Source of the DNA: a virus
Reading direction: 5' to 3' (one strand)
IMG/VR virus record: IMGVR_UViG_3300043958_000214
DNA: 38,844 nt
In this document: positions 865 through 38,278 of the stretch, piece by piece
Layout: every line of letters starts with the position of its first letter
How positions within the stretch are numbered: position 1 is the stretch's first letter
Program-made: the position numbers and the translations under genes
The notes under the pieces: model-generated
Told to the model about the DNA's origin: nothing
The model's database searches: none
The model's input: only the letters and a program-made list of their open reading frames with translations

Positions 865-1389
865 TCAGCCTGGGATGCCGAGGTCGACGAAGTAGCGTGC
901 GACCTTCCCCTTCTTGGTGTTGCCCTTCTTGTCGGTGAAGGTCTCCACGTTCTTCAGGATCATGACGCGGTGGCCGATCAGGGATCGAGCGAGGTTCGCG
1001 GTAGCCAAGCCGTCCTCCTTGTAGATGGGCTCGGTGGTGATGGACTCGTTGCCGTTCTCGTCGACGTGGTTGCCCTGGTGGGTCGGCCTGTAGGTGACGA
1101 CGACGCGGTTGGTGTGGGGGTCCTTGACCGCCCCGACGATGTCGCCGACGACGACCCCCTGCGGCTTCTGGCGGTCGTTGAGGACGAAAGCCTCCTCGAT
1201 CTGGGAGATCGCTCGATCCGCCGCGGATTTCGGCGCGCACATGGCCGTGATCCGCACCGCCTCCTGGCGGACGAGTTCCTCGAACGTGTAGGCGGCGTCG
1301 GGGTGGTTGGGATTGCCCGACGCCTGGGCTGTCTTCTGACGGTCGAGGGCGAGGGGGATGGCTGCGATGATGATGTCCTGGTGGGACAC
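865..1389 (-). CDS. Hypothetical protein
   Basis: Protein-like ORF; AAGGAG RBS 7 nt before GTG 1389; terminator follows. Confidence 0.75.
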   Translation of the reverse strand: MSHQDIIIAAIPLALDRQKTAQASGNPNHPDAAYTFEELVRQEAVRITAMCAPKSAADRAISQIEEAFVLNDRQKPQGVVVGDIVGAVKDPHTNRVVVTYRPTHQGNHVDENGNESITTEPIYKEDGLATANLARSLIGHRVMILKNVETFTDKKGNTKKGKVARYFVDLGIPG

Positions 1390-22490: not shown

Positions 22491-22608
22491 GACTCTTCTT
22501 GTGCGGCAAGTCTTGGCTTGGCCTACGTCTCCCAGGTGGGCTGCGACGTTTTGTCGGGAGGGTCGGGGGCCTGTCGCCAATTCGTTGTCGGCCAGGTGGG
22601 GCGTACTT

Positions 22609-22663
22609 CGCCACGAGAGCGCCCCACCTGGCCGTGATGGTCGGGTGGGGCGCTCTCGTGGCG
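22609..22663. terminator. Long hairpin closing the array downstream of cas8e
   Basis: CGCCACGAGAGCGCCCCACCTGGCC-GTGAT-GGTCGGGTGGGGCGCTCTCGTGGCG. Confidence 0.65.
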
Positions 22664-22749
22664 TTTCCCCTCGTGAGAGGGGATCAATGGTTGCCGTGAC
22701 GTAGTGACTTTCCAGCCACTTGGCTCACCCCCACTCTCGTGGGGATAGA
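22659..22749 (-). CRISPR. Degenerate type I-E mini-array (repeat, 33-nt spacer, repeat) downstream of cas8e
   Basis: Minus strand: TCTATCCCCACGAGAGTGGGGGTGAGCCA (22749-22721), spacer AGTGGCTGGAAAGTCACTACGTCACGGCAACCA, TTGATCCCCTCTCACGAGGGGAAACGCCA (22687-22659); 62-nt period. Orientation is not certain. Confidence 0.6.
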
Positions 22750-22774
22750 ACCAGAGTACACCGACCGCCCTACT

Positions 22775-24175
22775 TCACTGCTCGGCGGCGGGCCGTGCTT
22801 CGTTCCACTTCTTGCGGATGACGTTGGGGAGGGCTGCTGGCGGGAATCCGGGGCGGGGCGGGGGGACGGGGCCGACGATGCGTTCGACTACCCGGCAGGC
22901 GTCTTCCACCCACCGGTCCAGGGCTTTTAGGTCGAGGCGGCGTCCGCGCAGGTAGGCGAGGATCGTGGGCGCAGTCCTCGCCTCCTGCTCTTCGGTGATG
23001 TGCTGGTGCATGGTTTGGACCCAGTCGCTGGGGGCGCCGGGGCGGCGGGAGGCGCGGGCGCTGACGATGATGTGGCTGACCTCCTCCGCAATGCCGGTGA
23101 GGGATTCGACTGTGCGGGCCCGCTCGGCCAGGCCGCTCGTGGTGAGGGTGAGGGTCTGGGTCTCAATGTCATCGATGCGGGAGCGCTGGGGGCCAAACCG
23201 GGTGATGAGGGTCTGGACGTCGAGGGTGGGGGGAAGGTCTGCGGGTGGGTCCTCCAGGAGTCGGCGCACGCCCACTGGGAGGGTGGCCCCCTTGGGGAGG
23301 ATGGCGGTCCATGGCTCCCCCGCCCACTCCGCTTCGCGGGGGATGAGGTTCCCGGTTCCGGCCAGGCGCATGAGGGCGTGGGGGTCGGCCGAGCGGATGT
23401 TGGTGGAGGGGAGCTGGTCGCCGTTGGCGATGAAGGCGCCGACCGCGTGGTCGTCCGCGTCGAGGGTGAGGCGCAGGCGGCGTCCCGGCCACACCAGGAC
23501 TCTCCCCGCCCCGACCTCGCTCACCTCATAGACGCCCCTGGGACGGTCCGCCTCGTCCTCCCACATGGGGGTTTCATCCCCGCCGTTGGGCCCCTCGGGC
23601 AGGTTCCAGATGATGGTGCGGTCCAGGGTGGGGTGGATGACGAGCGTGTTCGGGGCGACGGTGAGGATTCCGGGGCCCACGGGCATGGTCTTGCCTCGCG
23701 TGGTGCGCGCGTCTCCTGCGATGCCTGAGCGGATCCCGGAGGGGTCGGCGAGCATCCGGCGCAGGAGCGCTCGGGCCGCCACGTCAGGCCCCACGGCGTG
23801 CGGGACGGTGGCGCGGTTGGTGTCCATGGTGACCAGGCGGTCCAGCCCGTCGGGGATGGTGGGGTTGGAGGGGGCCACATCGTACTGGAACGCGCGGTCC
23901 AGGTCGAAGCGTGCGCGCCAGCGGGCGAGATAGGCGCGAATCTCCTCCAGGGGCAGGCCGCCCTCCCACACCTCGCGCCACGGGCGCCCTGAGCACACGC
24001 GCCACGTGATGGAGATGAGGAGCCGCTCGATGCTGCGCGCCTCCATAGGATCGTCGCCGCCCACCATGGCGATCGCGGGCGCCTGGGAGAACACGTCGGC
24101 CAGGGAGAGGGTCGGCTGGGTGCCGTCCCGGCTGACGACGGGGATCCACGGGTCATCAACGAGATTGAACACCAC
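22775..24175 (-). CDS. cas8e: Type I-E Cascade large subunit Cas8e (Cse1/CasA), solitary and divergent
   Basis: FNLVDDPWIPV...LSLADVF, RFDL...FQ, AARALL...DPSGIRSG, TLDRTIIWNL and WPGRRLRL motifs typical of actinobacterial Cse1. Confidence 0.88.
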   Translation of the reverse strand: MVFNLVDDPWIPVVSRDGTQPTLSLADVFSQAPAIAMVGGDDPMEARSIERLLISITWRVCSGRPWREVWEGGLPLEEIRAYLARWRARFDLDRAFQYDVAPSNPTIPDGLDRLVTMDTNRATVPHAVGPDVAARALLRRMLADPSGIRSGIAGDARTTRGKTMPVGPGILTVAPNTLVIHPTLDRTIIWNLPEGPNGGDETPMWEDEADRPRGVYEVSEVGAGRVLVWPGRRLRLTLDADDHAVGAFIANGDQLPSTNIRSADPHALMRLAGTGNLIPREAEWAGEPWTAILPKGATLPVGVRRLLEDPPADLPPTLDVQTLITRFGPQRSRIDDIETQTLTLTTSGLAERARTVESLTGIAEEVSHIIVSARASRRPGAPSDWVQTMHQHITEEQEARTAPTILAYLRGRRLDLKALDRWVEDACRVVERIVGPVPPPRPGFPPAALPNVIRKKWNEARPAAEQ

Positions 24176-24178
24176 CCC

Positions 24179-24544
24179 TCACCTCCCCAACCGCTTGTAG
24201 ACGGTGGACCGGGTGACGTGGGCGCGCTCAGCGATCTGGGCGATGGGCATGCCCTGGATGTCGGCGGCGACCATCGCGCCCTGCAGGCGGTCCAGGGCGT
24301 CCAGGTACCTCATCTGGGCGGCCCGTGCCTCCTCCCCCAGATCCTCCAGCGCGCCATCTCCGAGCGCGTACTGGGCGGCCCCGACCAGCTGCTCAGCCGT
24401 CATGCCCGCCTCGTCCTCCGGGGCGTCGGGCTCCTGATCCCGGTAGATCTCACGGATGCGGGCGGCCGCCCGCTGGAAAAGCCCCTGCTGCTCCTCGGTG
24501 CCGGCCCCGTCGAGGTAGGCCAGTGTTTCTGGCGTGATGTCCAT
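24179..24544 (-). CDS. Small protein with C-terminal HTH (Aca-like regulator candidate)
   Basis: GMPIAQIAERAHVTRSTVYKRL; CAGGAG RBS; stop lies 4 nt before cas8e. Confidence 0.75.
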   Translation of the reverse strand: MDITPETLAYLDGAGTEEQQGLFQRAAARIREIYRDQEPDAPEDEAGMTAEQLVGAAQYALGDGALEDLGEEARAAQMRYLDALDRLQGAMVAADIQGMPIAQIAERAHVTRSTVYKRLGR

Positions 24545-24602
24545 GATGTGCTCCTGCCGATCGCGTGTCTGATAGGGGTGTGCGTGTGTGTATAGTGGCC
24601 TC

Positions 24603-24693
24603 AGGTCCCCCGCGTAGGCGGGGGTAGGCCGTTCTCGTCGACGGCTGGCCAAGCCAATGGCTTGAACTTCCCCGCGTATGCGGGGGATGCGGG
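24603..24693 (+). CRISPR. Type I-E mini-array (repeat, 33-nt spacer, repeat)
   Basis: AGGTCCCCCGCGTAGGCGGGGGTAGGCCG (24603-24631), spacer TTCTCGTCGACGGCTGGCCAAGCCAATGGCTTG, AACTTCCCCGCGTATGCGGGGGATGCGGG (24665-24693); TATAGT -10 at 24591-24596. Confidence 0.75.
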
Positions 24694-24727
24694 ACCCGGG
24701 CCTTCGGGCTGGGGTCCCGCTTTTCTT
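24689..24727 (+). terminator. Intrinsic terminator after the mini-array (may also serve the convergent gene)
   Basis: GCGGGACCCGGGCC-TTCG-GGCTGGGGTCCCGC followed by TTTTCTT. Confidence 0.75.
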
Positions 24728-24730
24728 GGG

Positions 24731-25300
24731 CTAGGCGATCCGCTGGGCCTGCCCGGCGGCGTCGCGCACGACCTCCACGACCGCTTCGCCGTCCGCGAGG
24801 TCCGCCCACATGGCGGCGTGGAGCCCGTCCTCCTCGCGCCACACCACCGGTGTCCGCTCGTAGTCGCCCGGGTCCTCATCGAGGACCCACTCCCACCGCA
24901 CCGCCTCGTCGATGGCCTCCGCGCATGCGCGCTCGGCCGCAGCCCCCGCGTCCTCCGCCTGGGCATCGAGGCTGGGTGAGGGCTCCAGGGCCTCCGCCCA
25001 CTCCCTGAGCGAGTCCAGGTCCTCGAGCGAGTCGATGCTCAGCACGCGCAGGAGCTCGCCGGCGTGGACGCTGCCGTCCCCGTCCTCCTCGGGCAGGGAG
25101 GCCACATCCTCGATCTGCGTCCCCTCATCGGTCAAGTAGGTCCGGGCGGCGGCGCGGGGCACCCCGTCCTCGTCGAGGTAGCGGTCCTCGCGCATGATGG
25201 CGACCCGGACCCCCTTCCAGGCGGTGGCGGGGATCGTGTGGGCGATGATGCCCTCGGGCAGTGACCAGGAGCGGACCCGGTCCTCGATCGTGGCGGTCAT
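24731..25300 (-). CDS. Acidic hypothetical protein (anti-CRISPR candidate by context)
   Basis: 189 aa, D/E rich; AAAGGA RBS. Confidence 0.7.
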   Translation of the reverse strand: MTATIEDRVRSWSLPEGIIAHTIPATAWKGVRVAIMREDRYLDEDGVPRAAARTYLTDEGTQIEDVASLPEEDGDGSVHAGELLRVLSIDSLEDLDSLREWAEALEPSPSLDAQAEDAGAAAERACAEAIDEAVRWEWVLDEDPGDYERTPVVWREEDGLHAAMWADLADGEAVVEVVRDAAGQAQRIA

Positions 25301-25312
25301 GACGTGTTCCTT

Positions 25313-25723
25313 TCAGGCGTTCCAGATGTCGTCCGCGTGGTCGCGGATCCGGGAGAAATTCTCGATGCCGGCGATCCCGGTCTCGTCCTGCCAGTCGACC
25401 AGGTCAGAGACCAGGACCAGGAACTGCTCGGTGGTCTCGGAGTCGACCAGCTCGGCGGTCTCCGGGAGGATGAGGCGCTCACCCATCCGCTCGTCGCAGG
25501 GGGTGTCCTCGGAGGCGGGGCCCTCGATGCGGACCAGGACCGGGGCGCCGGCCTCGATCGCCATGACCGAGAGGTAGGCGGCGAGCTCGGGGAGCTCGTC
25601 CATACCGGACACCCCGTGGCGGACCGCCTCGTCGTCCCCGTTCATGGGGAAGGAGTACTGCTGCTCCGGGTCGAGGAGGTCACTGAGGCTGCGGTCCTTG
25701 TCCTGCATCCGGTAGGTGATCAT
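25313..25723 (-). CDS. Acidic hypothetical protein (anti-CRISPR candidate by context)
   Basis: 136 aa, D/E rich; GAGAGGA RBS. Confidence 0.7.
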   Translation of the reverse strand: MITYRMQDKDRSLSDLLDPEQQYSFPMNGDDEAVRHGVSGMDELPELAAYLSVMAIEAGAPVLVRIEGPASEDTPCDERMGERLILPETAELVDSETTEQFLVLVSDLVDWQDETGIAGIENFSRIRDHADDIWNA

Positions 25724-25754
25724 CTCTGGGGTCCTCTCTCCCTCGCCGATGACA

Positions 25755-25796
25755 CCAGTGTATAGGGGTAGACACTCATCTGTCTACCCCTATACA
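25755..25796 (-). promoter_or_regulatory. Housekeeping-type promoter overlapped by a perfect 16-bp inverted-repeat operator
   Basis: TGTATAGGGGTAGACA-CTCATC-TGTCTACCCCTATACA (25759-25796); minus strand reads TAGACA-18 nt-TACACT. Confidence 0.7.
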
Positions 25797-25819
25797 GGGT
25801 GGCGTGTCACGATTTGATA

Positions 25820-26479
25820 ATGACCACTATCTCCGTACGTGCCGCCGTCAGGTCCCACACTGGGATCATGGATGACGGAATGCTCGAGCTCCGGTGGACA
25901 GACATCACCGGCGGTCAACGCTTCGCGGACACCGCAGACCCAGACCCTCATCGCGTCCTGCACCTCACCCCGCCTCAGAGGATCGCCATGCAAAAGCATG
26001 CTGAGCGTATGCTCGCCCAGCATGCCGCCCACGTCTTCGCGCCTTTCGGCGCTCTTATCGACGGCTCGCAGGTCCACTGGCCGCGGGAGCGGAGCGACGA
26101 GTGGAGGGCGATCCTACGCAGAGAGATGCCCGGACTCGTCGCGGACCTTATCGACGTCGACCTCGACGATGTGCGCGAGCGATGGCGGACCCAGGAGGAA
26201 AAGGCGTTCATCCTCGCCCGCCCTCCTCGCCCGGAAGGTCAGATCGCCACCTGGGAAGCCGGCGCCAGGGACCATCAGCAGATGCGGGAGATCACAATGC
26301 CTACGAACTCACGCTCCCCGCAGGAGTGGCGCGCACTCGCTGACGGCACCCTCCATCGTGCTGGATGGAGACGCATCGAAGAGTGGTGGTCTCCCCTTCC
26401 CGGAGCCGTAGCCGCCCACATCGAGCCAGCCACCGCCACGCATGCCTCATGCGCAAAAGGCAGGTCAACCGTAGACTGA
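25820..26479 (+). CDS. Hypothetical protein
   Basis: Protein-like ORF; start uncertain. Confidence 0.55.
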   Translation: MTTISVRAAVRSHTGIMDDGMLELRWTDITGGQRFADTADPDPHRVLHLTPPQRIAMQKHAERMLAQHAAHVFAPFGALIDGSQVHWPRERSDEWRAILRREMPGLVADLIDVDLDDVRERWRTQEEKAFILARPPRPEGQIATWEAGARDHQQMREITMPTNSRSPQEWRALADGTLHRAGWRRIEEWWSPLPGAVAAHIEPATATHASCAKGRSTVD

Positions 26480-26541
26480 CCGTCCCCTCGATGCCGGGTC
26501 GTTGGCACCGCCCAACCCAGCCGGCCTTCCACTCGCCTAGG

Positions 26542-31800: not shown

Positions 31801-32304
31801 TCAGGCGGGGAGGACGCACACGCCCAGCCCAGACTCCCCGACGGCTCGAGCGCACTCTCCTCCCCAAGCCAACAGCATCGACCCGGATCCGGGCGCCCCA
31901 CCCCTCTCGGTCGTCCCGCCCTTGATGAAGTGGATGCGGCCGGCGACGAAGCAGATCACATCCGACGTCGGGGCAACCTCTTGGAACCAGGCGGGGTCGG
32001 TGCGCGCGAAGACGAGAGCGATACCCGACCCGCCCGCCGCGGCATGGTCCCGCATCCTGCGCATCCACGCGGACGTATGAGCACCGTAAGGCGGATTCAA
32101 GAACACGCGCCCTTCCCAGGGGGACGCTAAGCCGTCGTCGATCCGGGTGAGGACGCGGTCTGCGGGGACGAAGGACTTCCCCGGGCCCGGCGAACACGGG
32201 TCGAGGTCGAAACGAAGGCCCAGAGCATCGAAGATCTCTGGCGGGGTGTACCACTCGACGGAGTTGATATGGGGCGATTCGTGGGTGAAGCCGGAGGCTG
32301 GCAT
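31801..32304 (-). CDS. Phage-type DNA N6-adenine methyltransferase
   Basis: EWYTPP, FDLDPCS, VFLNPPYG, ARTD..WFQ, GRIHF. Confidence 0.9.
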   Translation of the reverse strand: MPASGFTHESPHINSVEWYTPPEIFDALGLRFDLDPCSPGPGKSFVPADRVLTRIDDGLASPWEGRVFLNPPYGAHTSAWMRRMRDHAAAGGSGIALVFARTDPAWFQEVAPTSDVICFVAGRIHFIKGGTTERGGAPGSGSMLLAWGGECARAVGESGLGVCVLPA

Positions 32305-32338
32305 GCCATGTGTGTGCCCCCCGCCCGCCGCCAGCGGA

Positions 32339-32872
32339 CTACCCCCAGTGGGTTGTCCGGCATTCCGGGCACCGGCACCGGAGCCTGTACCCGCCTTCGG
32401 TTCCGTGAGCGATATCCGGATCCCGCCCGCTCATCAGGGCGTCGTCGAGTTCACGGCGCCACTCTTCGTTCCACTTGGCGATCCCGTGGAGACGCTGGGG
32501 TGTCAGGCCTGTTTCCTCTCTGACCTCCTCGAATGTGCCGCCAGAAGAGAGGATCTCAATGACCGTGCTCTTATGGTCGGCGAGCAGGTTGAGCGCCTGC
32601 GCGCGCCTGGATCCGCGCAGGTGAGCGTTATGGGCGGCGAGGCACTCGTCGCACGGGCAACCAGCCCTCCATCGTGTCTCAGTGCCGTGGTCGGCCCGGA
32701 TCCCACCATGGCGCCCATTGTCAGCGGCCTTGTTCTGGGCTTTTCTGACTTGGGCGAGAGTCCATGGTCCTTCGCCCAGATAGCCGATCCGTACCCATCT
32801 TTCCACCGTGGTGGAGGCGACGCCGACGGCTTGCGCTGCTTTTCTGCACGATTCGAGTCGCTTCGCCGTCAT
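32339..32872 (-). CDS. HTH protein with two HGT...CxCxxC metal-binding motifs
   Basis: AAQAVGVASTTVERW; HGTETRWRAGCPCDEC; HGTEGGYRLRCRCPEC. Confidence 0.75.
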   Translation of the reverse strand: MTAKRLESCRKAAQAVGVASTTVERWVRIGYLGEGPWTLAQVRKAQNKAADNGRHGGIRADHGTETRWRAGCPCDECLAAHNAHLRGSRRAQALNLLADHKSTVIEILSSGGTFEEVREETGLTPQRLHGIAKWNEEWRRELDDALMSGRDPDIAHGTEGGYRLRCRCPECRTTHWG

Positions 32873-32893
32873 CGTCCGCCCTCCCGCAGAAAC

Positions 32894-32922
32894 CTGTTCA
32901 TCCCCGCACTCGCGGGGACGTT
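32894..32922 (-). CRISPR. Solitary type I-E-like repeat unit, intergenic
   Basis: Minus strand AACGTCCCCGCGAGTGCGGGGATGAACAG; 29 nt with the 5+6+4+6+8 layout; no partner repeat about 61 nt away. Confidence 0.5.
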
Positions 32923-32962
32923 TAGAGGCTACCTGGGCGACGCCGGCGAATCCACTCGGCTC

Positions 32963-33193
32963 TCAGCGCACATACGTGTTCGCGGGCACGTCGGCGTAGC
33001 CGTGGTCGCAGAAGTACCGGACGACGGCCGACGCTTCTGCGTCGAAGTTGATGGCCTGGAGGACCTCGCCGAACGTGGCTCCGTCTTCGGCGAGAAAGAC
33101 GATGAGGTCGCTGGTAGCCTGCGTGGTGGACGCGAAAGGACGTTTGCGGCCTGGCAGTACCCAGTCGACACCCAGATCGAGACGTCTACTCAC
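32963..33193 (-). CDS. Hypothetical protein
   Basis: AAGGAG RBS before GTG. Confidence 0.55.
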   Translation of the reverse strand: MSRRLDLGVDWVLPGRKRPFASTTQATSDLIVFLAEDGATFGEVLQAINFDAEASAVVRYFCDHGYADVPANTYVR

Positions 33194-33302
33194 TCTCCTT
33201 CACCCTCGTGAAACTGATCGAGTTCGGCGCAGCCCTGGTGAACGGGTCCCGGACGGCAACTCTCGACAAGGATGGAACTCAGAAGATCCGCAACAACTGG
33301 AT

Positions 33303-34349
33303 CTACTTGGATGACTCCCCTCTTAGCTGAATCTCGCTCAGGGGCTTGATTGAGTTCGCAGCGAGGGCCGCATACTCTCCATCTCGTTCAATACCTATGC
33401 TCTCGTAGCCGACCGCTTCCGCGGCTGCCAAGGTTGATCCAGACCCTGCGAAAGGGTCAAGGACGATGCCCTCGCCTAGCGGAAGAATTGCTCGAACAAC
33501 CTGTCGCAAGAATGCCTGGGGCTTTAGCGAGGGATGTGGAGCAATCTTACGTTCTGACGAGCGCGTTGGACCTGATCGGATCACATCTCCGAAGGGCTGA
33601 TCCTCAGAGATGCGCCTGAGCCCGCCCGTCTTCCATGTGCGAAGGTTCTGAGCCACTGTGCCTTCGACCGGTTTTCGGAAGAGCAACCAAGGCTCCCACA
33701 TGCTCCGTGGCATCACCGAGACATCTGCGAACTCCTCGTGGGCGTTCTTGGGGCGATCCCCTCCGCGCATCGTCTGGACGAGGCGAATCACCTCACCCCG
33801 GCGCTCAAAGCCTGCCATGTCTAAGGCTCTTGACACATGATGAGAAAGCAGTGGATTGCAGGCGAGCATGATGTGTCCGCCCGGGGTCAAGATTCGAAGC
33901 GCCTTCTCTCCAAACAACCGGAAGAAGCGCTCCAGGCTGTCGATATCGGCCGCGCTGAGCGTGGTAAACCTCGGGAGAGGCGAGCGCTGATGGCCGTCGA
34001 AGGAAGGCGGGATTCTCCAAACTCCACACTTGCCGTTTCTGAGCTTCGCCTGTTCGCGGGAGGTGTATTCGACCAGTCCGTAGGGCGGATCTGTGACGAT
34101 TCCGTGGATGCTTGACTCTGCTCTTTGGTCGAGCCAGTCGAGGCTGTCAGCATAGTAGAGCGTCGCCTTGCCGACAGTTGCTAGAGGTTCCTCAACGGAT
34201 GGTTCTGGCACTGCTGGCTCGGGAGGAGGCGTCTGGAGCAGCTGGTAGCGGACGTGCCCCAGCGAATCATCAACCGAACCGATGATCTCGCGCAGGGCGA
34301 GCGTGTCCTCTTCTGCGTCCACGCCCAAGGATCGGTGCGCCCGCCTCAC
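33303..34349 (-). CDS. N4-cytosine/N6-adenine DNA methyltransferase (beta class)
   Basis: IVTDPPYG, HPSLKP, VLDPFAGSGST; GTGA overlap with the upstream stop. Confidence 0.9.
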   Translation of the reverse strand: MRRAHRSLGVDAEEDTLALREIIGSVDDSLGHVRYQLLQTPPPEPAVPEPSVEEPLATVGKATLYYADSLDWLDQRAESSIHGIVTDPPYGLVEYTSREQAKLRNGKCGVWRIPPSFDGHQRSPLPRFTTLSAADIDSLERFFRLFGEKALRILTPGGHIMLACNPLLSHHVSRALDMAGFERRGEVIRLVQTMRGGDRPKNAHEEFADVSVMPRSMWEPWLLFRKPVEGTVAQNLRTWKTGGLRRISEDQPFGDVIRSGPTRSSERKIAPHPSLKPQAFLRQVVRAILPLGEGIVLDPFAGSGSTLAAAEAVGYESIGIERDGEYAALAANSIKPLSEIQLRGESSK

Positions 34350-35080
34350 GCGAATCCTCCACGCCACGCCATGCCCTCGGACTCCGCGGCTTGGCGGGTG
34401 GGCGCCTCGCTTGGGAACGGGTCCCAGATGGTCCCGCCCCGGGGTGTGGTCAGTCTGGCGAGTTCGCGCAGGAGTGCGAGCGGCGGCGTTCCGGTGTCGT
34501 CGGGTCCGGTCCAGAAGAAGCGGCTGGCTCCGCCTCTCTCGGCGCCCCTGGAGGGCGTGAGTTCGCGTTGGCCTGCGAACGGGTGGTAGACGGCTCGGAA
34601 CATGTCGCCTCCGCGTCGCGTGGGGTTCGCCCCGGACGTGAGGATCCCGGACTGTGTGTCCAGGGCGGCGACCGGGCAGGACGGGACGCAGCTTCCTGGG
34701 GTGCAGCCCACGGCGTGGGTGAACATGACGTCGGCCGGCCATCTTCCGACGGTCGAGGGCCCACCACCGATACGACACGCACCGACATTGAGCCCGCCGA
34801 CCCCGTGGCGAAGGACGTTGGCAGCGAATGTGCCGCCTGCAGGTTTGCGGGCGAGGACGATCGGGGTGATGGACCCGCCTTCGCGGATCCAGGCGATGGA
34901 GTCGAAGACGGTGAACCCGGCGTCCTCCACCTCGATGGCGAACCGGTGCCACGCGCCGAGGTGGGTGAGAGCGACGAGGTTCGCTCCCGGGAGGAGCCCG
35001 GCGAAGGTGTTTTCGGCCCAACCGTCGGGGCGCTCGTCGGGCGGGCAGGTGAGGACCGCGTGGGAGGGCGCACTCATCAT
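34346..35080 (-). CDS. Degenerate beta-class DNA methyltransferase paralogue (catalytic and SAM-binding motifs lost)
   Basis: VLTCPPD in place of DPPY; WDPFPSEAPT in place of DPFxGSGT; retains WHR...EDAGF, PIVLARKP and GRWPADV. Confidence 0.7.
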   Translation of the reverse strand: MMSAPSHAVLTCPPDERPDGWAENTFAGLLPGANLVALTHLGAWHRFAIEVEDAGFTVFDSIAWIREGGSITPIVLARKPAGGTFAANVLRHGVGGLNVGACRIGGGPSTVGRWPADVMFTHAVGCTPGSCVPSCPVAALDTQSGILTSGANPTRRGGDMFRAVYHPFAGQRELTPSRGAERGGASRFFWTGPDDTGTPPLALLRELARLTTPRGGTIWDPFPSEAPTRQAAESEGMAWRGGFA

Positions 35081-35994
35081 GCTGCTCTCCTCTCGCCGGT
35101 CACGCGCTCGAGACGTTGTTCGATGAGGGGCACGTAGGTCTCCTCGCGCTCGATCCCCACCCACTGGCGTCCCTCCAGGCTTGCGGCCTCCGCGGTCGTC
35201 CCGGACCCCAGGAACGGGTCGAGGACAGTGCCCCCTCGCTGCGCTGACAGTGTGATGAGGGTGCGCATGAGGGCTAGTGGTTTCACCGTCGGGTGGACCT
35301 TTCCGTCGGGTCCGACCGGCCGCTCCGATTTCGGGGCTTTTGCGCAGTAGAAGAACCGCTCCTGCAAGTCGTCGAGCGGCAGATGGACGGCGGGTCCGGG
35401 TTTGCGCGCGACAACGATCGGCTCGAATGCGGGACGCAGCTGCGTATTCCACCCCGCCCAGCGCTTCGCCGTCTCGGAGGTCGTGACCGTCACTGGTGTA
35501 GACCGGCGGTCGCTGTAGCCGCGCCCACCCGGATGGTCATGGAGCGCAGCGGCGGCCATCTTGTCCAGCGTCTTCGCGATGTTCTGTCCGTGGGGCATCC
35601 CCTGCCCATGAACCCACGCCAATGGCTCGTCCAGGATGAGGCCGGCGTCCTCCAGGCCGGCGGCGAGACGGTGCCAGGTCCGGGGGGCACCGAACGTGAG
35701 GCCGACGGCACCGGGCTTCATGACGCGGAGCAGGCGCTCTCCGATCGCCTTCGACCATGCCTCGAACTCGTGGACATCCGTGTCCGCATGCCCGCGCGAA
35801 TGCGTGCCCCCATAGGCGTAGGCGCCACGGCGCTCCTTGCCGGTGGCGATCTGACCGAGCATTGTCGGGTGGTCCCAGGACTGGCCCATGAAGTCCAGCG
35901 AGTAGGGCGGGTCCGTGACGACGGCGTCGATGCTGTCCGCGGCGAGGCATTCGAGTTCTGCGAGGGCGTCGCCGATGACGAGACGGCCGGTCAT
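35077..35994 (-). CDS. N4-cytosine/N6-adenine DNA methyltransferase (beta class)
   Basis: VVTDPPY, HPTVKP, VLDPFLGSGTT. Confidence 0.93.
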   Translation of the reverse strand: MTGRLVIGDALAELECLAADSIDAVVTDPPYSLDFMGQSWDHPTMLGQIATGKERRGAYAYGGTHSRGHADTDVHEFEAWSKAIGERLLRVMKPGAVGLTFGAPRTWHRLAAGLEDAGLILDEPLAWVHGQGMPHGQNIAKTLDKMAAAALHDHPGGRGYSDRRSTPVTVTTSETAKRWAGWNTQLRPAFEPIVVARKPGPAVHLPLDDLQERFFYCAKAPKSERPVGPDGKVHPTVKPLALMRTLITLSAQRGGTVLDPFLGSGTTAEAASLEGRQWVGIEREETYVPLIEQRLERVTGERRAA

Positions 35995-36269
35995 CGGTTC
36001 ATCGCCAGGGCTGTGTCATAGCGCTGCGTGCACCAACGCGCGTCCCCATACGTGAGAGCGAGGTTGAGTGGCGGCCAGAGAGCCAAACTGGCGAGAACGG
36101 CGAGAATGGTGGACGTGTGGACGGGATGCCAGATGAGGGTTTCGATGGCCAGAACCGCCAGGACGGCGAGTTCCACGACAGCATGCCATCGCGCGGTGAG
36201 CAGCTTCTCCTGCGAGTCGTACATGCGGCAGAACATGTAGTCGAGCGTTCGTCTGAGGGATGTGGACAT
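35991..36269 (-). CDS. Small membrane protein (two predicted TM helices)
   Basis: Hydrophobic segments; ATGA coupling to the methylase. Confidence 0.65.
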   Translation of the reverse strand: MSTSLRRTLDYMFCRMYDSQEKLLTARWHAVVELAVLAVLAIETLIWHPVHTSTILAVLASLALWPPLNLALTYGDARWCTQRYDTALAMNR

Positions 36270-36311
36270 GCCTTGTGTGTGCCAGACGTCCGAGCGCTAG
36301 CGAACACGGAG
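36267..36311. repeat. 45-bp direct repeat (promoter and start); second copy 37430-37474; the pair brackets the C5 methylase
   Basis: CATGCCyTGTGTGTGCCmGACGTCCGAGCGCyAGCGAACACGGAG. Confidence 0.85.
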
Positions 36312-36319
36312 CGTTGAGG

Positions 36320-37432
36320 CTAGAGGTGGAGGGCCTGCTTGACCGCTTCGGCGGCCGCGAGCGCGAGGCGCGGGGGAACGGCGTTCCCGATCTGGCGGTA
36401 CCGGGAGGACTGCGGGCCCTGCCATTCCATGTTGAGTGGGAACGTCTGGATGGCGGCGGCCTCCTCGACTGTCAGGCGTCGCAGGGGGTCGGGGGCGTTG
36501 CGTGTCGAGGCGTTGGCGCCCCGGTTGAGGAGGGCGGTGTGGTAGCCCACCACCCACGGTTCCGCGTTCTCATTCTCCAGGGCGAGCTGGTCGATGATGG
36601 GAGTCAGATTCCCGCCGATTGATGCGGCCAGGGTGAGGGAAGGCGCGTCGAGATCCAGGGGACGCCCTCCTCCGTTGAAGAGCATTCCCGCGTACGGTGA
36701 CCGGCACGTCTGGTTGTTGCCCGGCTTCCCGTAAGGGGAAAGCTGAGCGAGCGCTTCCCGGACCGTTGGGCTGTCCAGCGGAGTGGTTGGTACAGGGGCG
36801 ACCGGCTGTCCGACATCCTTGTGAACCCCGAGGAACAGCATCCTCTCCCTCGACTGCGGGACCCCGAAGTGGGCGGCATTCACTAGGGTGAGCGCGGTGT
36901 TGTACCCCAGAGTGTCGGCGCGTTCGAGCAGCCTTCTGCGGACGTCCTCCCAGCGCTTGCTCTGGTAGAGGCTCTTCACGTTCTCCATGACGAACGCCTT
37001 GGGGTGGACGCGCTCGACCATGTCGAGGAAGTGAAAGACGTGCTGGGAGCGCGGGTCACCGGGGTCCATCTTTCCTGCGACGCTGAATCCCTGGCAGGGC
37101 GGGCCACCAATGACGAGGTCCGCCGAACCTTCTCCCGGAAGTTCGTCCTCGGGGATGGCGAGGAGGTCTCCTATCCTGGTGGCGTGACGGGTCCCCCTGA
37201 GGTGGGGGCGGGTTTCCGTGAGCCGCTCGAAGGCCTTGTCGTGGGTCCGGGACGCCCACGGGGTGAGTTCGTTGGTCCACACAGGCGCGAACCCGGCGAG
37301 GGCGAATCCGATGTCCAGTCCGCCGGCTCCGGCGAACAGGGACACGTACGTGGCGAGCGGCGTGTCGTGCGTCGGGACGTCACTGTAGTCGCTGAGCGGG
37401 TGGTCACCTCTGTGCTCCGGTGTGGCGGGCAT
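36320..37432 (-). CDS. C5-cytosine DNA methyltransferase (orphan)
   Basis: SLFAGAGG, GGPPCQGFS, MENV, PQSRER, RRLTVEE, QIGNAVPP. Confidence 0.95.
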   Translation of the reverse strand: MPATPEHRGDHPLSDYSDVPTHDTPLATYVSLFAGAGGLDIGFALAGFAPVWTNELTPWASRTHDKAFERLTETRPHLRGTRHATRIGDLLAIPEDELPGEGSADLVIGGPPCQGFSVAGKMDPGDPRSQHVFHFLDMVERVHPKAFVMENVKSLYQSKRWEDVRRRLLERADTLGYNTALTLVNAAHFGVPQSRERMLFLGVHKDVGQPVAPVPTTPLDSPTVREALAQLSPYGKPGNNQTCRSPYAGMLFNGGGRPLDLDAPSLTLAASIGGNLTPIIDQLALENENAEPWVVGYHTALLNRGANASTRNAPDPLRRLTVEEAAAIQTFPLNMEWQGPQSSRYRQIGNAVPPRLALAAAEAVKQALHL

Positions 37433-37576: not shown

Positions 37577-38278
37577 TCAGTAGCGAGGGGCCAGGTCGCC
37601 GCGTTCGCGCATCCGGTACTCCACGTTGGAGACGTTGACCATGACGCTGCGCCCCCGAGTGGCGAGCGCTCGCTCGCTCTCAGCGCGCGAGTTCTCGATC
37701 CACTGGGCGGCGGACTTTCGGGTTGCGCCGCGACCTGCGACGGCGCGGGGTGTGATTGCGCCGGCATCGAGTTGTCTGCGCAGGTCGTCGTAGTGGACGA
37801 GGTCTCGCTTGAAGTCGTCCTCCGAACGCCCCACTGATTCCCCGCGCCAGATACTCTCGAACTCGTCCTCGAAGTCCTCGGGGATTGGCAGCCCCTGCTC
37901 GTAGGCGCGACCGAAGAACTCGTAGCGGGCGTGGAACTTCGCGGACTTCTCGACCTCCTCGGGGTCGAGGTTCTCGTCGACGTAGCGTTCCCATTCGGCC
38001 AGATTCGCCTTGGAGCGGCGCTTCCCTGGCATGTGCCGTTCGAACGTGTCGACCGCCCTGTTCCAGACTGCTTGGTCTCGCGCCTGCTCACGCCCCCATT
38101 CGCGATCCTCGTCCGTGACCATCTGGTCCGGGGCGATGAACTCCGCGAGCATCTGCTCCCGCGTCGGGGATGTCCCCAGCTGAAGGTCCGGGGCCTCGCC
38201 ATACGTCCGGGTGGTCCACTGGCCAGTGTTGTTCGGGTTGCCGCCGCGGGGATGATCCGCTTCGTTGTAGGTGCTCAT
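37577..38278 (-). CDS. Shared-leader protein 5
   Basis: MSTYNEADHPRGGNPNNTGQWTTRTYGEAPDLQL. Confidence 0.8.
   Translation of the reverse strand: MSTYNEADHPRGGNPNNTGQWTTRTYGEAPDLQLGTSPTREQMLAEFIAPDQMVTDEDREWGREQARDQAVWNRAVDTFERHMPGKRRSKANLAEWERYVDENLDPEEVEKSAKFHARYEFFGRAYEQGLPIPEDFEDEFESIWRGESVGRSEDDFKRDLVHYDDLRRQLDAGAITPRAVAGRGATRKSAAQWIENSRAESERALATRGRSVMVNVSNVEYRMRERGDLAPRY

What the first reader, a model, noticed from the sequence alone, without database searches (positions are those of the whole stretch)
24591..24727. Self-contained mini-CRISPR transcription unit whose spacer carries its own palindrome
Seen: a TATAGT -10 box 6 nt before repeat 1, two 29-nt I-E-type repeats (CCCCGC-N4-GCGGGG stem) 62 nt apart, and a U-tailed terminator overlapping repeat 2, transcribed divergently from HTH-cas8e. 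The spacer contains CAAGCCA-A-TGGCTTG (24650-24664). Inference: this yields one crRNA-like RNA of about 61 nt. The structured 3' spacer half suggests a decoy RNA (Racr-like), a partial-match repression guide, or a guide aimed at an operator.
Basis: partly seen in the sequence, partly recalled or inferred. Interest (0 to 1): 0.75.

Follow-up and report, generated by a model that had tools for sequence, protein, structure and literature searches.

The report
Mobile-element CRISPR mimic beside lone Cas8e
A phage- or plasmid-like element of an actinobacterium carries a tiny imitation of a type I-E CRISPR array (two repeats, one spacer) with its own promoter and terminator. It sits in a gene cassette with a stand-alone Cas8e gene, and most likely makes a guide-like RNA that engages the host's CRISPR complex for the element's benefit.

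Summary

It is one of five I-E-like hairpin units in the window, where 0.3 are expected by chance. A second one-spacer array lies just after the lone cas8e, and a solitary repeat lies at 32894-32922.

The unit sits in a GC-rich cassette: two very acidic ORFs, an HTH gene, a full-length stand-alone Cas8e and the second array. HTH plus solo Cas8e recurs on about 40 mobile-element contigs with no other cas gene seen in the flanks held. Five lineages also carry I-E-like mini-arrays.

Across 22 such repeats the stem is kept by compensatory changes. The 5'-handle is kept only where a spacer follows, as in CreR/Cracr regulatory mini-CRISPRs. The sister array's spacer is 25/33 conserved in a relative.

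The palindrome is not unusual: the spacer folds no better than real host spacers. No target was found anywhere, and no RNA data could be obtained.

Best reading: a crRNA-like counter-defence RNA (Cracr-like), here as a new variant linked to a solo Cas8e. This scan has noted similar cas-less I-E mimics on other actinobacterial elements.

The parts
24569..24596 (+). Promoter-like site CTGATA-16-TATAGT in front of repeat 1. The predicted start of transcription is about 24603.
   Evidence: one of only two promoter-like sites in 4 kb (0.1 expected). This is a consensus match only.
24603..24631 (+). Pseudo-repeat 1 (29 nt). It has a 6-7 bp stem, a GTAG loop, and the 8-nt 3' part GTAGGCCG, which would become the 5'-handle of the guide.
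24632..24664 (+). Spacer A (33 nt). It contains the palindromes CGTCGACG and CAAGCCA-A-TGGCTTG.
   Evidence: Folding energy is ordinary. No protospacer was found.
24665..24693 (+). Pseudo-repeat 2 (29 nt), the terminal repeat. The hairpin is kept, but the 3' flank is degenerate (GATGCGGG) and partly forms the terminator stem.
24689..24727 (+). Terminator-like hairpin (14-nt arms, 4-nt loop) followed by TTTTCTT. On the - strand it has no T-run.
   Evidence: (inverted repeat I6).
24624..24685 (+). Predicted mature crRNA-like RNA of 62 nt: 8-nt handle, 33-nt spacer and 21-nt 3' hairpin. It assumes Cas6e cuts at the 3' base of each stem.
   Evidence: Inference from established I-E Cas6e processing.
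24179..24544 (-). HTH gene (121 aa) with a C-terminal resolvase/sigma-r4-type HTH. It ends 3 nt before the cas8e start.
   Evidence: It is homologous to, and lies directly upstream of, solo cas8e in at least 30 related loci.
22775..24175 (-). Stand-alone cas8e/cse1 (466 aa). No other cas gene was found among the ORFs scanned.
   Evidence: AF2 model with pLDDT 94, showing an N-terminal domain plus a C-terminal four-helix bundle. Best fold match is T. fusca Cse1 (3wvo), TM 0.73 over the full length.
22615..22749 (-). Second one-spacer mini-array, starting about 26 nt after the cas8e stop on the same strand. It comprises repeat 22721-22749 (stem CCCCAC/GTGGGG, handle GTGAGCCA), a 33-nt spacer at 22688-22720, repeat 22659-22687 (stem CCCCTC/GAGGGG) and then a 17-bp hairpin.
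   Evidence: The period is 62 nt. Its spacer is 25/33 identical to the first spacer of the array after the 82%-identical Cas8e in L053.
24731..25300 (-). Acidic ORF of 189 aa (45 D+E against 16 K+R) with no known family.
25313..25723 (-). Acidic ORF of 136 aa (31 D+E against 9 K+R). It is conserved at 52-59% identity next to solo cas8e in L004, L010 and L055-L060.
25757..25796 (-). Promoter-like site TAGACA-18-TACACT lying within a perfect 16-bp inverted repeat. It is the likely regulated promoter of the cassette.
   Evidence: (inverted repeat I1).
32894..32922 (-). Solitary I-E-like repeat (handle ATGAACAG), 21 nt upstream of an HTH gene (32339-32872).

Best explanation
The unit is a degenerate one-spacer type I-E mini-CRISPR (pseudo-repeat, spacer, pseudo-repeat). 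It is carried by an actinobacterial mobile element inside a transferable counter-defence cassette. That cassette holds two acidic proteins, an HTH protein, a stand-alone Cas8e and a second mini-array.

Proposed mechanism (every step is inferred):
1. The unit is transcribed from its own + strand promoter, starting at about 24603. Transcription stops at the hairpin and T-run near 24727.
2. The host's Cas6e cuts at the base of each repeat hairpin. This releases a 62-nt crRNA-like RNA with the handle GUAGGCCG, a 33-nt guide and a 3' hairpin.
3. The host's Cas7, Cas5 and Cas11 assemble on this RNA, possibly with the element's own Cas8e in place of the host's.
4. The resulting complex withdraws Cascade subunits from immune crRNAs. 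It is also directed to a fixed, still unidentified DNA site that it binds rather than destroys.

This is the logic of Cracr/CreR-type crRNA-like regulators.
For: 1. I-E anatomy beyond chance. There are five perfect hairpin units against 0.32 expected. Both arrays have a period of 62 nt. A native Actinomyces I-E array has the same 29-nt design, a period of 61 nt and a related handle.

2. Own promoter-like and terminator-like sites on the + strand.

3. RNA-level selection. In 22 related repeats the stem pair at columns 10/17 is GC in 17, UA in 3 and AU in 2, and is never unpaired. No shuffle out of 500 reaches the observed covariation score.

4. Guide-type design. First repeats keep a handle resembling (A/G)TGA(G/C)CC, while terminal repeats keep only the hairpin. 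This is the pattern described for CreR (10.1101/2023.03.10.532045).

5. Spacers behave as fixed functional sequence. The sister array's spacer is 25/33 identical in L053, and its first 11 nt are identical. The 20-nt spacers of L065 and L066 are 16/20 identical.

6. Context. The cassette has 71-72% GC and GC3 of 0.84-0.96, in an element of about 65% GC. It also has acidic ORFs, a promoter inside a palindrome and an HTH gene.

7. Recurrence. HTH plus solo Cas8e occurs on about 40 mobile-element contigs, and no other cas gene was seen in the flanks held. I-E-like mini-arrays adjoin it in five lineages: the window, L053, L004-7, L008/9/54 and L065-67.

8. A host with a native I-E system exists for this family. 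The Actinomyces MAG G001 carries both a canonical I-E locus and a solo Cas8e element.

9. Viral crRNA-like anti-CRISPR arrays for I-E are experimentally documented (10.1101/2024.10.29.618823).
Against: - No transcript, processing or Cascade-loading data exist.
- No target was found.
  - Spacer A's best match to 660 nt upstream of 26 Actinomycetaceae cas8e genes equals the shuffle null. The one 12-nt seed hit lies inside a cas3 coding region.
  - There is no match above null in the window or in 615 kb of related loci.
- The 33-nt spacer is full length, whereas the tested I-E Cracr spacers are 21-24 nt.
- Spacer conservation is shown for the sister array, not for this one, because no relative with the upstream region was available.
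- The true host of this element is unknown.
- Repeat 1's handle matches the one known Actinomyces handle at only 4 of 8 positions.
- About half or more of the solo-Cas8e loci have no mini-array in the flanks held.
Confidence: 0.5

Rival explanations
1. It is an ordinary immune-type viral or plasmid mini-array. The spacer fully matches a rival mobile element, and the host's Cascade and Cas3 destroy that rival (inter-element competition).
For: - The spacer has canonical length: 33 nt, against 32-33 nt in a native Actinomyces array.
- The unit has its own promoter.
Against: - No protospacer was found in IMG/VR (exact match, or with every sixth base left free), INPHARED phages, PLSDB plasmids, JGI metagenomes or 615 kb of related elements.
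- Known mini-arrays carry repeats identical to the host's. Here the two repeats are only 20/29 identical to each other, and 18/29 to the one host repeat known.
- The sister array's spacer is conserved, with point changes, between relatives. Freshly acquired spacers do not behave this way.
Confidence: 0.2
2. It is a pure Racr-type decoy. The repeat hairpins sequester Cas6e and Cas7 into aberrant subcomplexes, and the spacer sequence is irrelevant.
For: - It lies in an acr/aca-like locus with degenerate repeats.
- Racrs, including two I-E ones, are experimentally shown and often sit beside acr genes (PMC10651486).
- The window also has a true solitary repeat at 32894-32922.
Against: - The 5'-handle is kept only in repeats that are followed by a spacer.
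- Both arrays have exactly 33-nt spacers.
- The sister spacer is conserved, including its seed.
- For RacrIF1, the handle was dispensable and the inhibitory part lay upstream of the cleavage site.
Confidence: 0.12
3. It is a CreR-like autoregulator of the element's own HTH-cas8e operon. The guide would bring Cascade to the cassette's own promoter.
For: - It occupies the CreR position, in the intergenic region directly upstream of the effector-type cas gene.
- Its promoter region repeats part of the half-site of the palindrome at 25759-25796 (sequence; lead from note e1-5629275).
Against: - There is no seed or extended match to 24548-24602, to 25750-25800, or to any other intergenic part of the window.
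- The only 12-nt seed identities lie inside coding regions: at 37971 (AGG flank) and at 1055 (CCG flank). Both encode VDEN in frame.
Confidence: 0.07
4. It is not a guide RNA gene. The hairpins would be a relic of a captured I-E locus. Alternatively, they act in cis as terminators, attenuators or an antisense element between the acidic ORFs and HTH-cas8e.
For: - The unit lies in a 183-nt gap between two - strand genes.
- The 24689-24720 hairpin sits right after the stop of the 189-aa ORF.
- A + strand RNA would be antisense to any read-through transcript.
- Rfam gives only a sub-threshold CRISPR-DR28 hit: 22 bits against a gathering score of 35.
Against: - The stem shows compensatory covariation.
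- The unit has I-E period and handle design.
- The T-run is on the + strand only.
- Mini-arrays recur in different positions in five lineages of the family.
Confidence: 0.08

Closest known systems
Cracr arrays: viral crRNA-like regulatory anti-CRISPR RNAs (Liu et al., bioRxiv 10.1101/2024.10.29.618823)
   Same: - A cas-operon-independent mini-array on a mobile element, with degenerate I-E pseudo-repeats.
- Its own transcription unit.
- It lies next to acr-like genes.
- The relatives L004, L008, L053 and L065-67 have short spacers of 17-22 nt, like the 21-24 nt I-E Cracr spacers.
   Different: - No similarity to a host CreR or CreA, and no match to a cas promoter, could be shown.
- The spacer here is full length (33 nt).
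- The array adjoins a stand-alone cas8e. That study's pipeline discarded hits adjacent to cas genes, so this layout would have been filtered out.
CreR of type I-E (Salmonella enterica): degenerate mini-CRISPR that autorepresses the casA promoter (bioRxiv 10.1101/2023.03.10.532045)
   Same: - Position just upstream of cas8e (casA).
- Architecture of pseudo-repeat, spacer, pseudo-repeat.
- The first pseudo-repeat keeps the 5'-handle and the second keeps the 3' hairpin.
   Different: - CreR belongs to a complete chromosomal I-E locus, and its spacer shares 15 consecutive nt with an AAG-flanked site about 140 bp upstream of casA.
- Here the only cas gene is a solo cas8e on a mobile element, and no such self-target exists.
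Racr: RNA anti-CRISPRs encoded as solitary repeat units (Camara-Wilpert et al. 2023, PMC10651486)
   Same: - A repeat mimic on a mobile element within an anti-defence locus.
- It is expected to be bound and cut by Cas6.
- I-E examples exist.
   Different: - Racrs are single repeats with no functional spacer, and their handle is dispensable.
- This unit has two repeats, a canonical-length spacer and a conserved handle on the first repeat only.
Viral CRISPR mini-arrays for inter-virus competition (SPV1/SPV2 and others; reviewed in PMC11656645)
   Same: One or two spacers, no cas operon, and use of the host's Cas proteins.
   Different: - Those carry repeats identical to the host's, and their spacers match related viruses.
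- Here the repeats are degenerate and no protospacer was found.

Membership tests
Type I-E CRISPR repeat (array-like unit) | A repeat of about 29 nt with a G+C-rich 6-7 bp stem, a 4-nt loop and an 8-nt 3' part that becomes the crRNA 5'-handle. Repeat period is about 61 nt. | tested here: met
   Both repeats fit the 5+6+4+6+8 layout, and the period is 62 nt. A native Actinomyces I-E array (L018) has the same layout with a period of 61 nt. Rfam gives only a sub-threshold CRISPR-DR28 hit.
Type I-E CRISPR repeat (array-like unit) | The repeat matches the repeat of the element's own host I-E system. | tested here: inconclusive
   The host is unknown. Repeat 1 is 18/29 identical to the Actinomyces G001 repeat. 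No array in 201 Actinomycetaceae genomes matches the 24-nt core of repeat 1 within 3 mismatches.
Cracr (viral crRNA-like regulatory anti-CRISPR RNA) | Encoded on a virus or plasmid, outside a CRISPR-Cas locus, as pseudo-repeat, pseudo-spacer, pseudo-repeat. | tested here: met
   The context is a mobile element, with an exonuclease, a primase-like gene and four DNA methyltransferases. No cas gene other than the solo cas8e was found among the ORFs scanned.
Cracr (viral crRNA-like regulatory anti-CRISPR RNA) | [quoted passage not shown] | tested here: not met
   Matches to 660 nt upstream of 26 Actinomycetaceae cas8e genes do not exceed shuffles. The one 10/10 seed hit lies in a cas3 coding region with a TGA flank. 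Because the true host was not sampled, this is a failed test on stand-ins, not proof of absence.
Cracr (viral crRNA-like regulatory anti-CRISPR RNA) | Cas-dependent maturation and inhibition of CRISPR interference. | not testable with these tools
No wet-lab data exist.
CreR (Cas-regulating RNA) | Lies within a cas locus upstream of effector genes, and its spacer partly matches a PAM-flanked site at that locus's own cas promoter. | tested here: not met
   The position upstream of HTH-cas8e is met. There is no match in the cassette's intergenic regions.
Racr (solitary repeat unit RNA) | A single repeat-like hairpin without a spacer-bounded second repeat. | tested here: not met
   There are two repeats bounding a 33-nt spacer. 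The separate unit at 32894-32922 does fit this definition.
Viral mini-array (inter-element competition) | The spacer matches a related virus or plasmid. | tested here: not met
   No match was found in IMG/VR, INPHARED, PLSDB, JGI metagenomes or the related loci.
Cas8e/Cse1 (the neighbouring gene) | The Cse1 fold: an N-terminal globular domain plus a C-terminal four-helix bundle. | tested here: met
   Pfam E = 1e-44. AF2 model with pLDDT 94. Foldseek match to 3wvo with TM 0.73 over the full length. NCBIfam equivalog score of 65.4 is just below its cut-off of 70.
Cas8e/Cse1 (the neighbouring gene) | Encoded in an operon with cas11, cas7, cas5 and cas6e. | tested here: not met
   No other cas gene was found among the window ORFs scanned or in the called genes of the relatives looked up. 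The loci were not annotated for cas genes.

The most novel reading that the evidence does not exclude
The two mini-arrays are dedicated guides for a chimeric Cascade. The element's compact Cas8e takes the host Cas8e's place on host Cas5, Cas7, Cas11 and Cas6e that are loaded with the element's own crRNA-like RNAs. This Cas8e has a conserved N-terminal docking and PAM domain, and a C-terminal bundle too diverged to align with canonical Cas8e. The swap would convert the host's immune complex into an element-programmed DNA binder that does not call Cas3. That would be a counter-defence by subunit replacement plus guide supply, which has not been described.
Probability: 0.2. Interest if true: 0.85.

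Novelty: new variant of a known kind. Interest (0 to 1): 0.6.

Why it matters
Mobile-element RNAs that imitate CRISPR guides were recognised only in 2023-2026. So far they are known as cas-less units.

Here such units are physically and evolutionarily tied to a conserved stand-alone large subunit (Cas8e) and its HTH partner, across dozens of actinobacterial elements. This suggests that some elements supply both a guide and a replacement subunit to take over the host's Cascade.

If so, three things follow:
- It would be a new anti-CRISPR principle.
- It would be a natural route to Cas3-free, programmable Cascade binding.
- It would warn that pipelines which discard repeat mimics next to cas genes miss this class.

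Even on the conservative reading, it adds an actinobacterial I-E example with clear comparative support for selection at the RNA level.

Tried and rejected
**Target searches for spacer A**
- Exact match, or with every sixth base left free, in IMG/VR: none.
- A 27-nt pattern in JGI metagenomes: none.
- blastn-short against INPHARED and PLSDB: only chance hits of 17-19 nt.
- The window itself: best 21/33, which equals the null.
- 615 kb of related and host loci: nothing above the null.
- 26 host cas8e upstream regions: nothing above the null. The one seed hit is in a cas3 coding region.

**Target searches for spacer B**
- IMG/VR, phages and plasmids: none.
- A pattern of its conserved positions in 201 Actinomycetaceae genomes: none.

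**Search for a host array with repeat 1's core**
- 201 genomes: no arrays. Single hits only, one of which led to another irregular mimic array (L019/L023).

**12-nt seed of spacer A at 37971 (AGG flank) and 1055 (CCG flank)**
- I consider these probably coincidental, because both encode VDEN in frame on the - strand.
- However, only 0.34% of the window's 12-mers have three copies, so I keep this as an unexplained lead.

**'Structured spacer means decoy'**
- Rejected as evidence, because the folding energy is ordinary.

**Searches for the element itself**
- Megablast or blastn of the island or window against phages and plasmids, and Cas8e in IMG/VR: no relatives.

**Native spacers of the Actinomyces array against the elements**
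- Best match is 25/32 to L010: suggestive only.

- Complex prediction for HTH with Cas8e could not be reached in five tries (and one repeat). There is no verdict.
- No whole genome is held for the window.
Full report
**1. The observation**

Reading 24300-25000 confirms each stated element.
- TATAGT lies at 24591-24596.
- A 29-nt unit lies at 24603-24631, with stem CCCCGC, loop GTAG and stem GCGGGG.
- A second unit lies at 24665-24693 with the same stem and a GTAT loop, giving a start-to-start spacing of 62 nt (family D5).
- The spacer is 33 nt (24632-24664) and ends in the palindrome CAAGCCA-A-TGGCTTG.
- A 14-nt-arm hairpin at 24689-24720 overlaps the end of repeat 2 and is followed by TTTTCTT (inverted repeat I6).

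The generic hairpin pattern CCCCNCNNNNGNGGGG occurs five times in the window against 0.32 expected. None of 100 shuffles reaches five, and in all five copies the free stem positions are complementary.

In 22500-26500 the promoter scan reports only two sites (0.1 expected). One is CTGATA-16-TATAGT at 24569-24596 on the + strand. The only + strand terminator-like site is the hairpin named above.

The same sequence is present in independent assemblies of three metagenome runs. The two repeats share 20 of 29 positions, and the differences are in the flanks.

**2. The surroundings**

The unit lies in a 183-nt gap between two - strand genes. The - strand carries, in order:
- a promoter-like site inside a perfect 16-bp inverted repeat (25757-25796);
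- a 136-aa ORF and a 189-aa ORF, both very acidic (31 and 45 D+E against 9 and 16 K+R);
- the gap that holds the mini-array;
- a 121-aa protein with a C-terminal HTH;
- 3 nt later, a 466-aa Cas8e/Cse1 (Pfam E = 1e-44; PADLOC Cas8e E = 4e-37).

About 26 nt after the cas8e stop, on the cas8e strand, lies a second one-spacer array. I looked there because of note e1-5629274.
- It has a repeat with stem CCCCAC/GTGGGG and handle GTGAGCCA.
- It has a 33-nt spacer.
- It has a repeat with stem CCCCTC/GAGGGG.
- Its period is again 62 nt, and it ends with a 17-bp hairpin.

A solitary repeat lies at 32894-32922 on the - strand, 21 nt before another HTH gene.

No other cas gene was found among the ORFs scanned.

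The rest of the window looks like a mobile element.
- It has a PD-(D/E)XK exonuclease, a primase-like protein and four DNA methyltransferases.
- No whole genome is held for it.
- The cassette at 22775-25723 has 71-72% GC and GC3 of 0.84-0.96, while the element has about 65% GC and GC3 of 0.70-0.83. This suggests the cassette was acquired as a block.

**3. The Cas8e and its family**

An exhaustive HMMER search places the protein in a small clade of compact Cas8e proteins (450-503 aa; 34-41% identity over the full length). Canonical Cas8e proteins (540-620 aa) align only to residues 1-270.

The AF2 model is confident (pLDDT 94). It shows the complete two-domain architecture, including the C-terminal four-helix bundle. 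Its best fold matches are Cse1 of Thermobifida fusca and other Cse1 structures, over the full length (TM 0.73).

The clade's genomic contexts are mobile-element contigs. They carry an integrase, Abi_2, a resolvase, methyltransferases, an AcrVA2-like gene and a conjugation-type ATPase. No other cas gene is called on the contigs looked up, and none was seen in the flanks held.

A homologue of the HTH gene lies directly upstream of cas8e in at least 30 loci. The 136-aa acidic protein is conserved at 52-59% identity in eight loci.

The only isolate-type genome hit is an uncultured Actinomyces MAG. It carries both a solo Cas8e element and a canonical I-E locus with an array. Its two Cas8e proteins align only over the N-terminal domain, at 31% identity. 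Canonical cas8e is present in 27 of 101 Actinomycetaceae genomes sampled.

**4. Mini-arrays recur with this module**

I-E-like repeats adjoin solo cas8e in five lineages.
- The window has two arrays.
- L053, whose Cas8e is 82% identical, has three repeats right after cas8e.
- L004-L007 have four repeats after cas8e with spacings of 61, 49 and 51 nt, followed by a strong terminator.
- L008, L009 and L054 have two repeats 46 nt apart.
- L065-L067 have two repeats 49 nt apart, about 2.5 kb downstream.

These are documented. Many other loci show none in the flanks held, so the arrays are an add-on and not obligatory. An Actinomycetaceae genome without a solo Cas8e also has an irregular four-repeat mimic array (L019/L023).

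**5. Evidence for function at the RNA level**

An alignment of 22 such repeats was tested against the hairpin.
- 93.5% of cells are paired.
- The variable stem pair is GC in 17 repeats, UA in 3 and AU in 2, and never unpaired.
- No shuffle of 500 reaches the observed covariation score, and slid controls drop to 44-62% paired.

The 3' part of the repeat becomes the 5'-handle of the next guide. It resembles the Actinomyces handle ATGAGCC only in repeats that are followed by a spacer. In every terminal repeat it is degenerate, and only the hairpin is kept. This is exactly the asymmetry described for CreR/CreA regulatory mini-CRISPRs. It is expected if each unit must yield a handle-spacer-hairpin RNA that assembles a Cascade.

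Spacers behave as conserved sequence.
- The window's second spacer and the first spacer of L053 share 25 of 33 positions, including the first 11.
- The 20-nt spacers of L065 and L066 share 16 of 20.

For spacer A itself no relative covering that region was available.

**6. The palindrome**

- Spacer A folds at -8.4 kcal/mol.
- Eighteen genuine spacers of the Actinomyces array average -8.2 kcal/mol, ranging down to -14.5.
- 31% of spacer A's shuffles fold at least as well.

I therefore give it no weight as evidence for a decoy.

**7. Target searches**

No protospacer was found for spacer A in:
- IMG/VR, JGI metagenomes, INPHARED or PLSDB;
- the window;
- 615 kb of related and host loci.

None was found for spacer B either.

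Against 660 nt upstream of 26 host cas8e genes, all thirteen mimic spacers score within the shuffle range. The single perfect seed lies in a cas3 coding region.

Spacer A's first 12 nt recur at 37971 (AGG flank) and at 1055 (CCG flank). Both sites lie in coding regions and read VDEN in frame. This is probably coincidence, but only 0.34% of the window's 12-mers have three copies.

**8. Interpretation**

The anatomy, the covariation, the handle asymmetry and the recurrent linkage argue that this is a functional crRNA-like RNA gene that depends on a host type I-E system. The cassette context points to counter-defence: acidic proteins, an HTH gene and a promoter inside a palindrome.

The published classes that work this way are:
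- Racr decoys (PMC10651486);
- Cracr arrays, which load host Cas proteins and send them to cas or toxin promoters (10.1101/2024.10.29.618823);
- immune-type viral mini-arrays (PMC11656645).

The guide-type design and the spacer conservation favour a Cracr-like or CreR-like regulator over a pure decoy. The degenerate repeats, the conserved spacers and the absence of protospacers argue against an immune-type mini-array.

Formal membership in Cracr fails on the one sequence criterion I could test, a match to a host CreR or cas promoter. That test used stand-in hosts only.

What is not described, to my knowledge and in the papers searched, is the linkage to a stand-alone Cas8e. The Cracr discovery pipeline explicitly removed hits next to cas genes.

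The most novel reading still open is that the element supplies both guide and large subunit, to build a chimeric Cascade that does not call Cas3.

**9. Limits**

There is no known host and no target. The complex prediction for HTH with Cas8e could not be run. The promoter and terminator are consensus matches only.

Earlier notes of this scan describe cas-less I-E mimics on other actinobacterial phages, prophages and plasmids. The kind is therefore recurrent in this scan. The solo Cas8e linkage was noted only on this window.

Noticed in passing
window 22615-22749 (-): A second one-spacer I-E-like mini-array lies right after the cas8e stop. Its stems carry compensatory changes (CCCCAC/GTGGGG and CCCCTC/GAGGGG). 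Its 33-nt spacer is 25/33 conserved in L053.
   Followed up: yes
window 32894-32922 (-): A solitary I-E-like repeat (handle ATGAACAG) lies 21 nt upstream of an HTH gene (32339-32872; HTH_28). Earlier scan notes describe the same pairing of a repeat mimic with an HTH/Zn gene leader in Streptomyces elements.
   Followed up: partly
window 25313-25723 (-); L004 5825-6217; L010 7177-7563: A 136-aa acidic protein beginning MI(T/A)YRMQD is conserved at 52-59% identity beside solo cas8e. ESM Atlas neighbours are viral and actinobacterial hypothetical proteins, with a feature-level resemblance to Arr-type ADP-ribosyltransferases (score 0.96; structural TM only 0.48).
   Followed up: partly
window 37971-37982 and 1055-1066 (+): The first 12 nt of spacer A recur exactly at two sites inside - strand coding regions, with AGG and CCG flanks. 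Both read VDEN in frame. At 1051-1066 the identity extends to 16 nt, including the last 4 nt of repeat 1.
   Followed up: partly
window 31801-37432 (-): Four DNA methyltransferase genes cluster here: Dam-like at 31801-32304, two N6/N4 genes at 33303-35021 and 35077-35994, and a C5 gene at 36320-37432. This is consistent with an anti-restriction region.
   Followed up: no
L019 1441-1653 (= G107 contig 10), - strand: An Actinomycetaceae genome without a solo Cas8e has an irregular four-repeat I-E mimic array with diverse stems and a terminator. Its repeat core is the closest match to the window's repeats.
   Followed up: partly
L018 (Actinomyces MAG G001 array) against L010 at about 11599: One native I-E spacer of the Actinomyces MAG matches a solo-Cas8e element (L010) at 25/32. 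This hints that host I-E systems target this element family.
   Followed up: no
L065 8933-8952; L066 8575-8594; L084 about 6638: The conserved 20-nt mimic spacers contain a TTGAC(-35)-like core. They share a contiguous 12-13 nt with a promoter-like site downstream of cas8e in L084 and L085. These spacers may therefore aim at promoters of sibling elements.
   Followed up: no
L055-L061 at about 5763 (inside cas8e): A conserved hairpin of the form CCCCTCC...GGAGGGG lies within the coding region of one solo-cas8e subclade. It is probably a coding feature.
   Followed up: no
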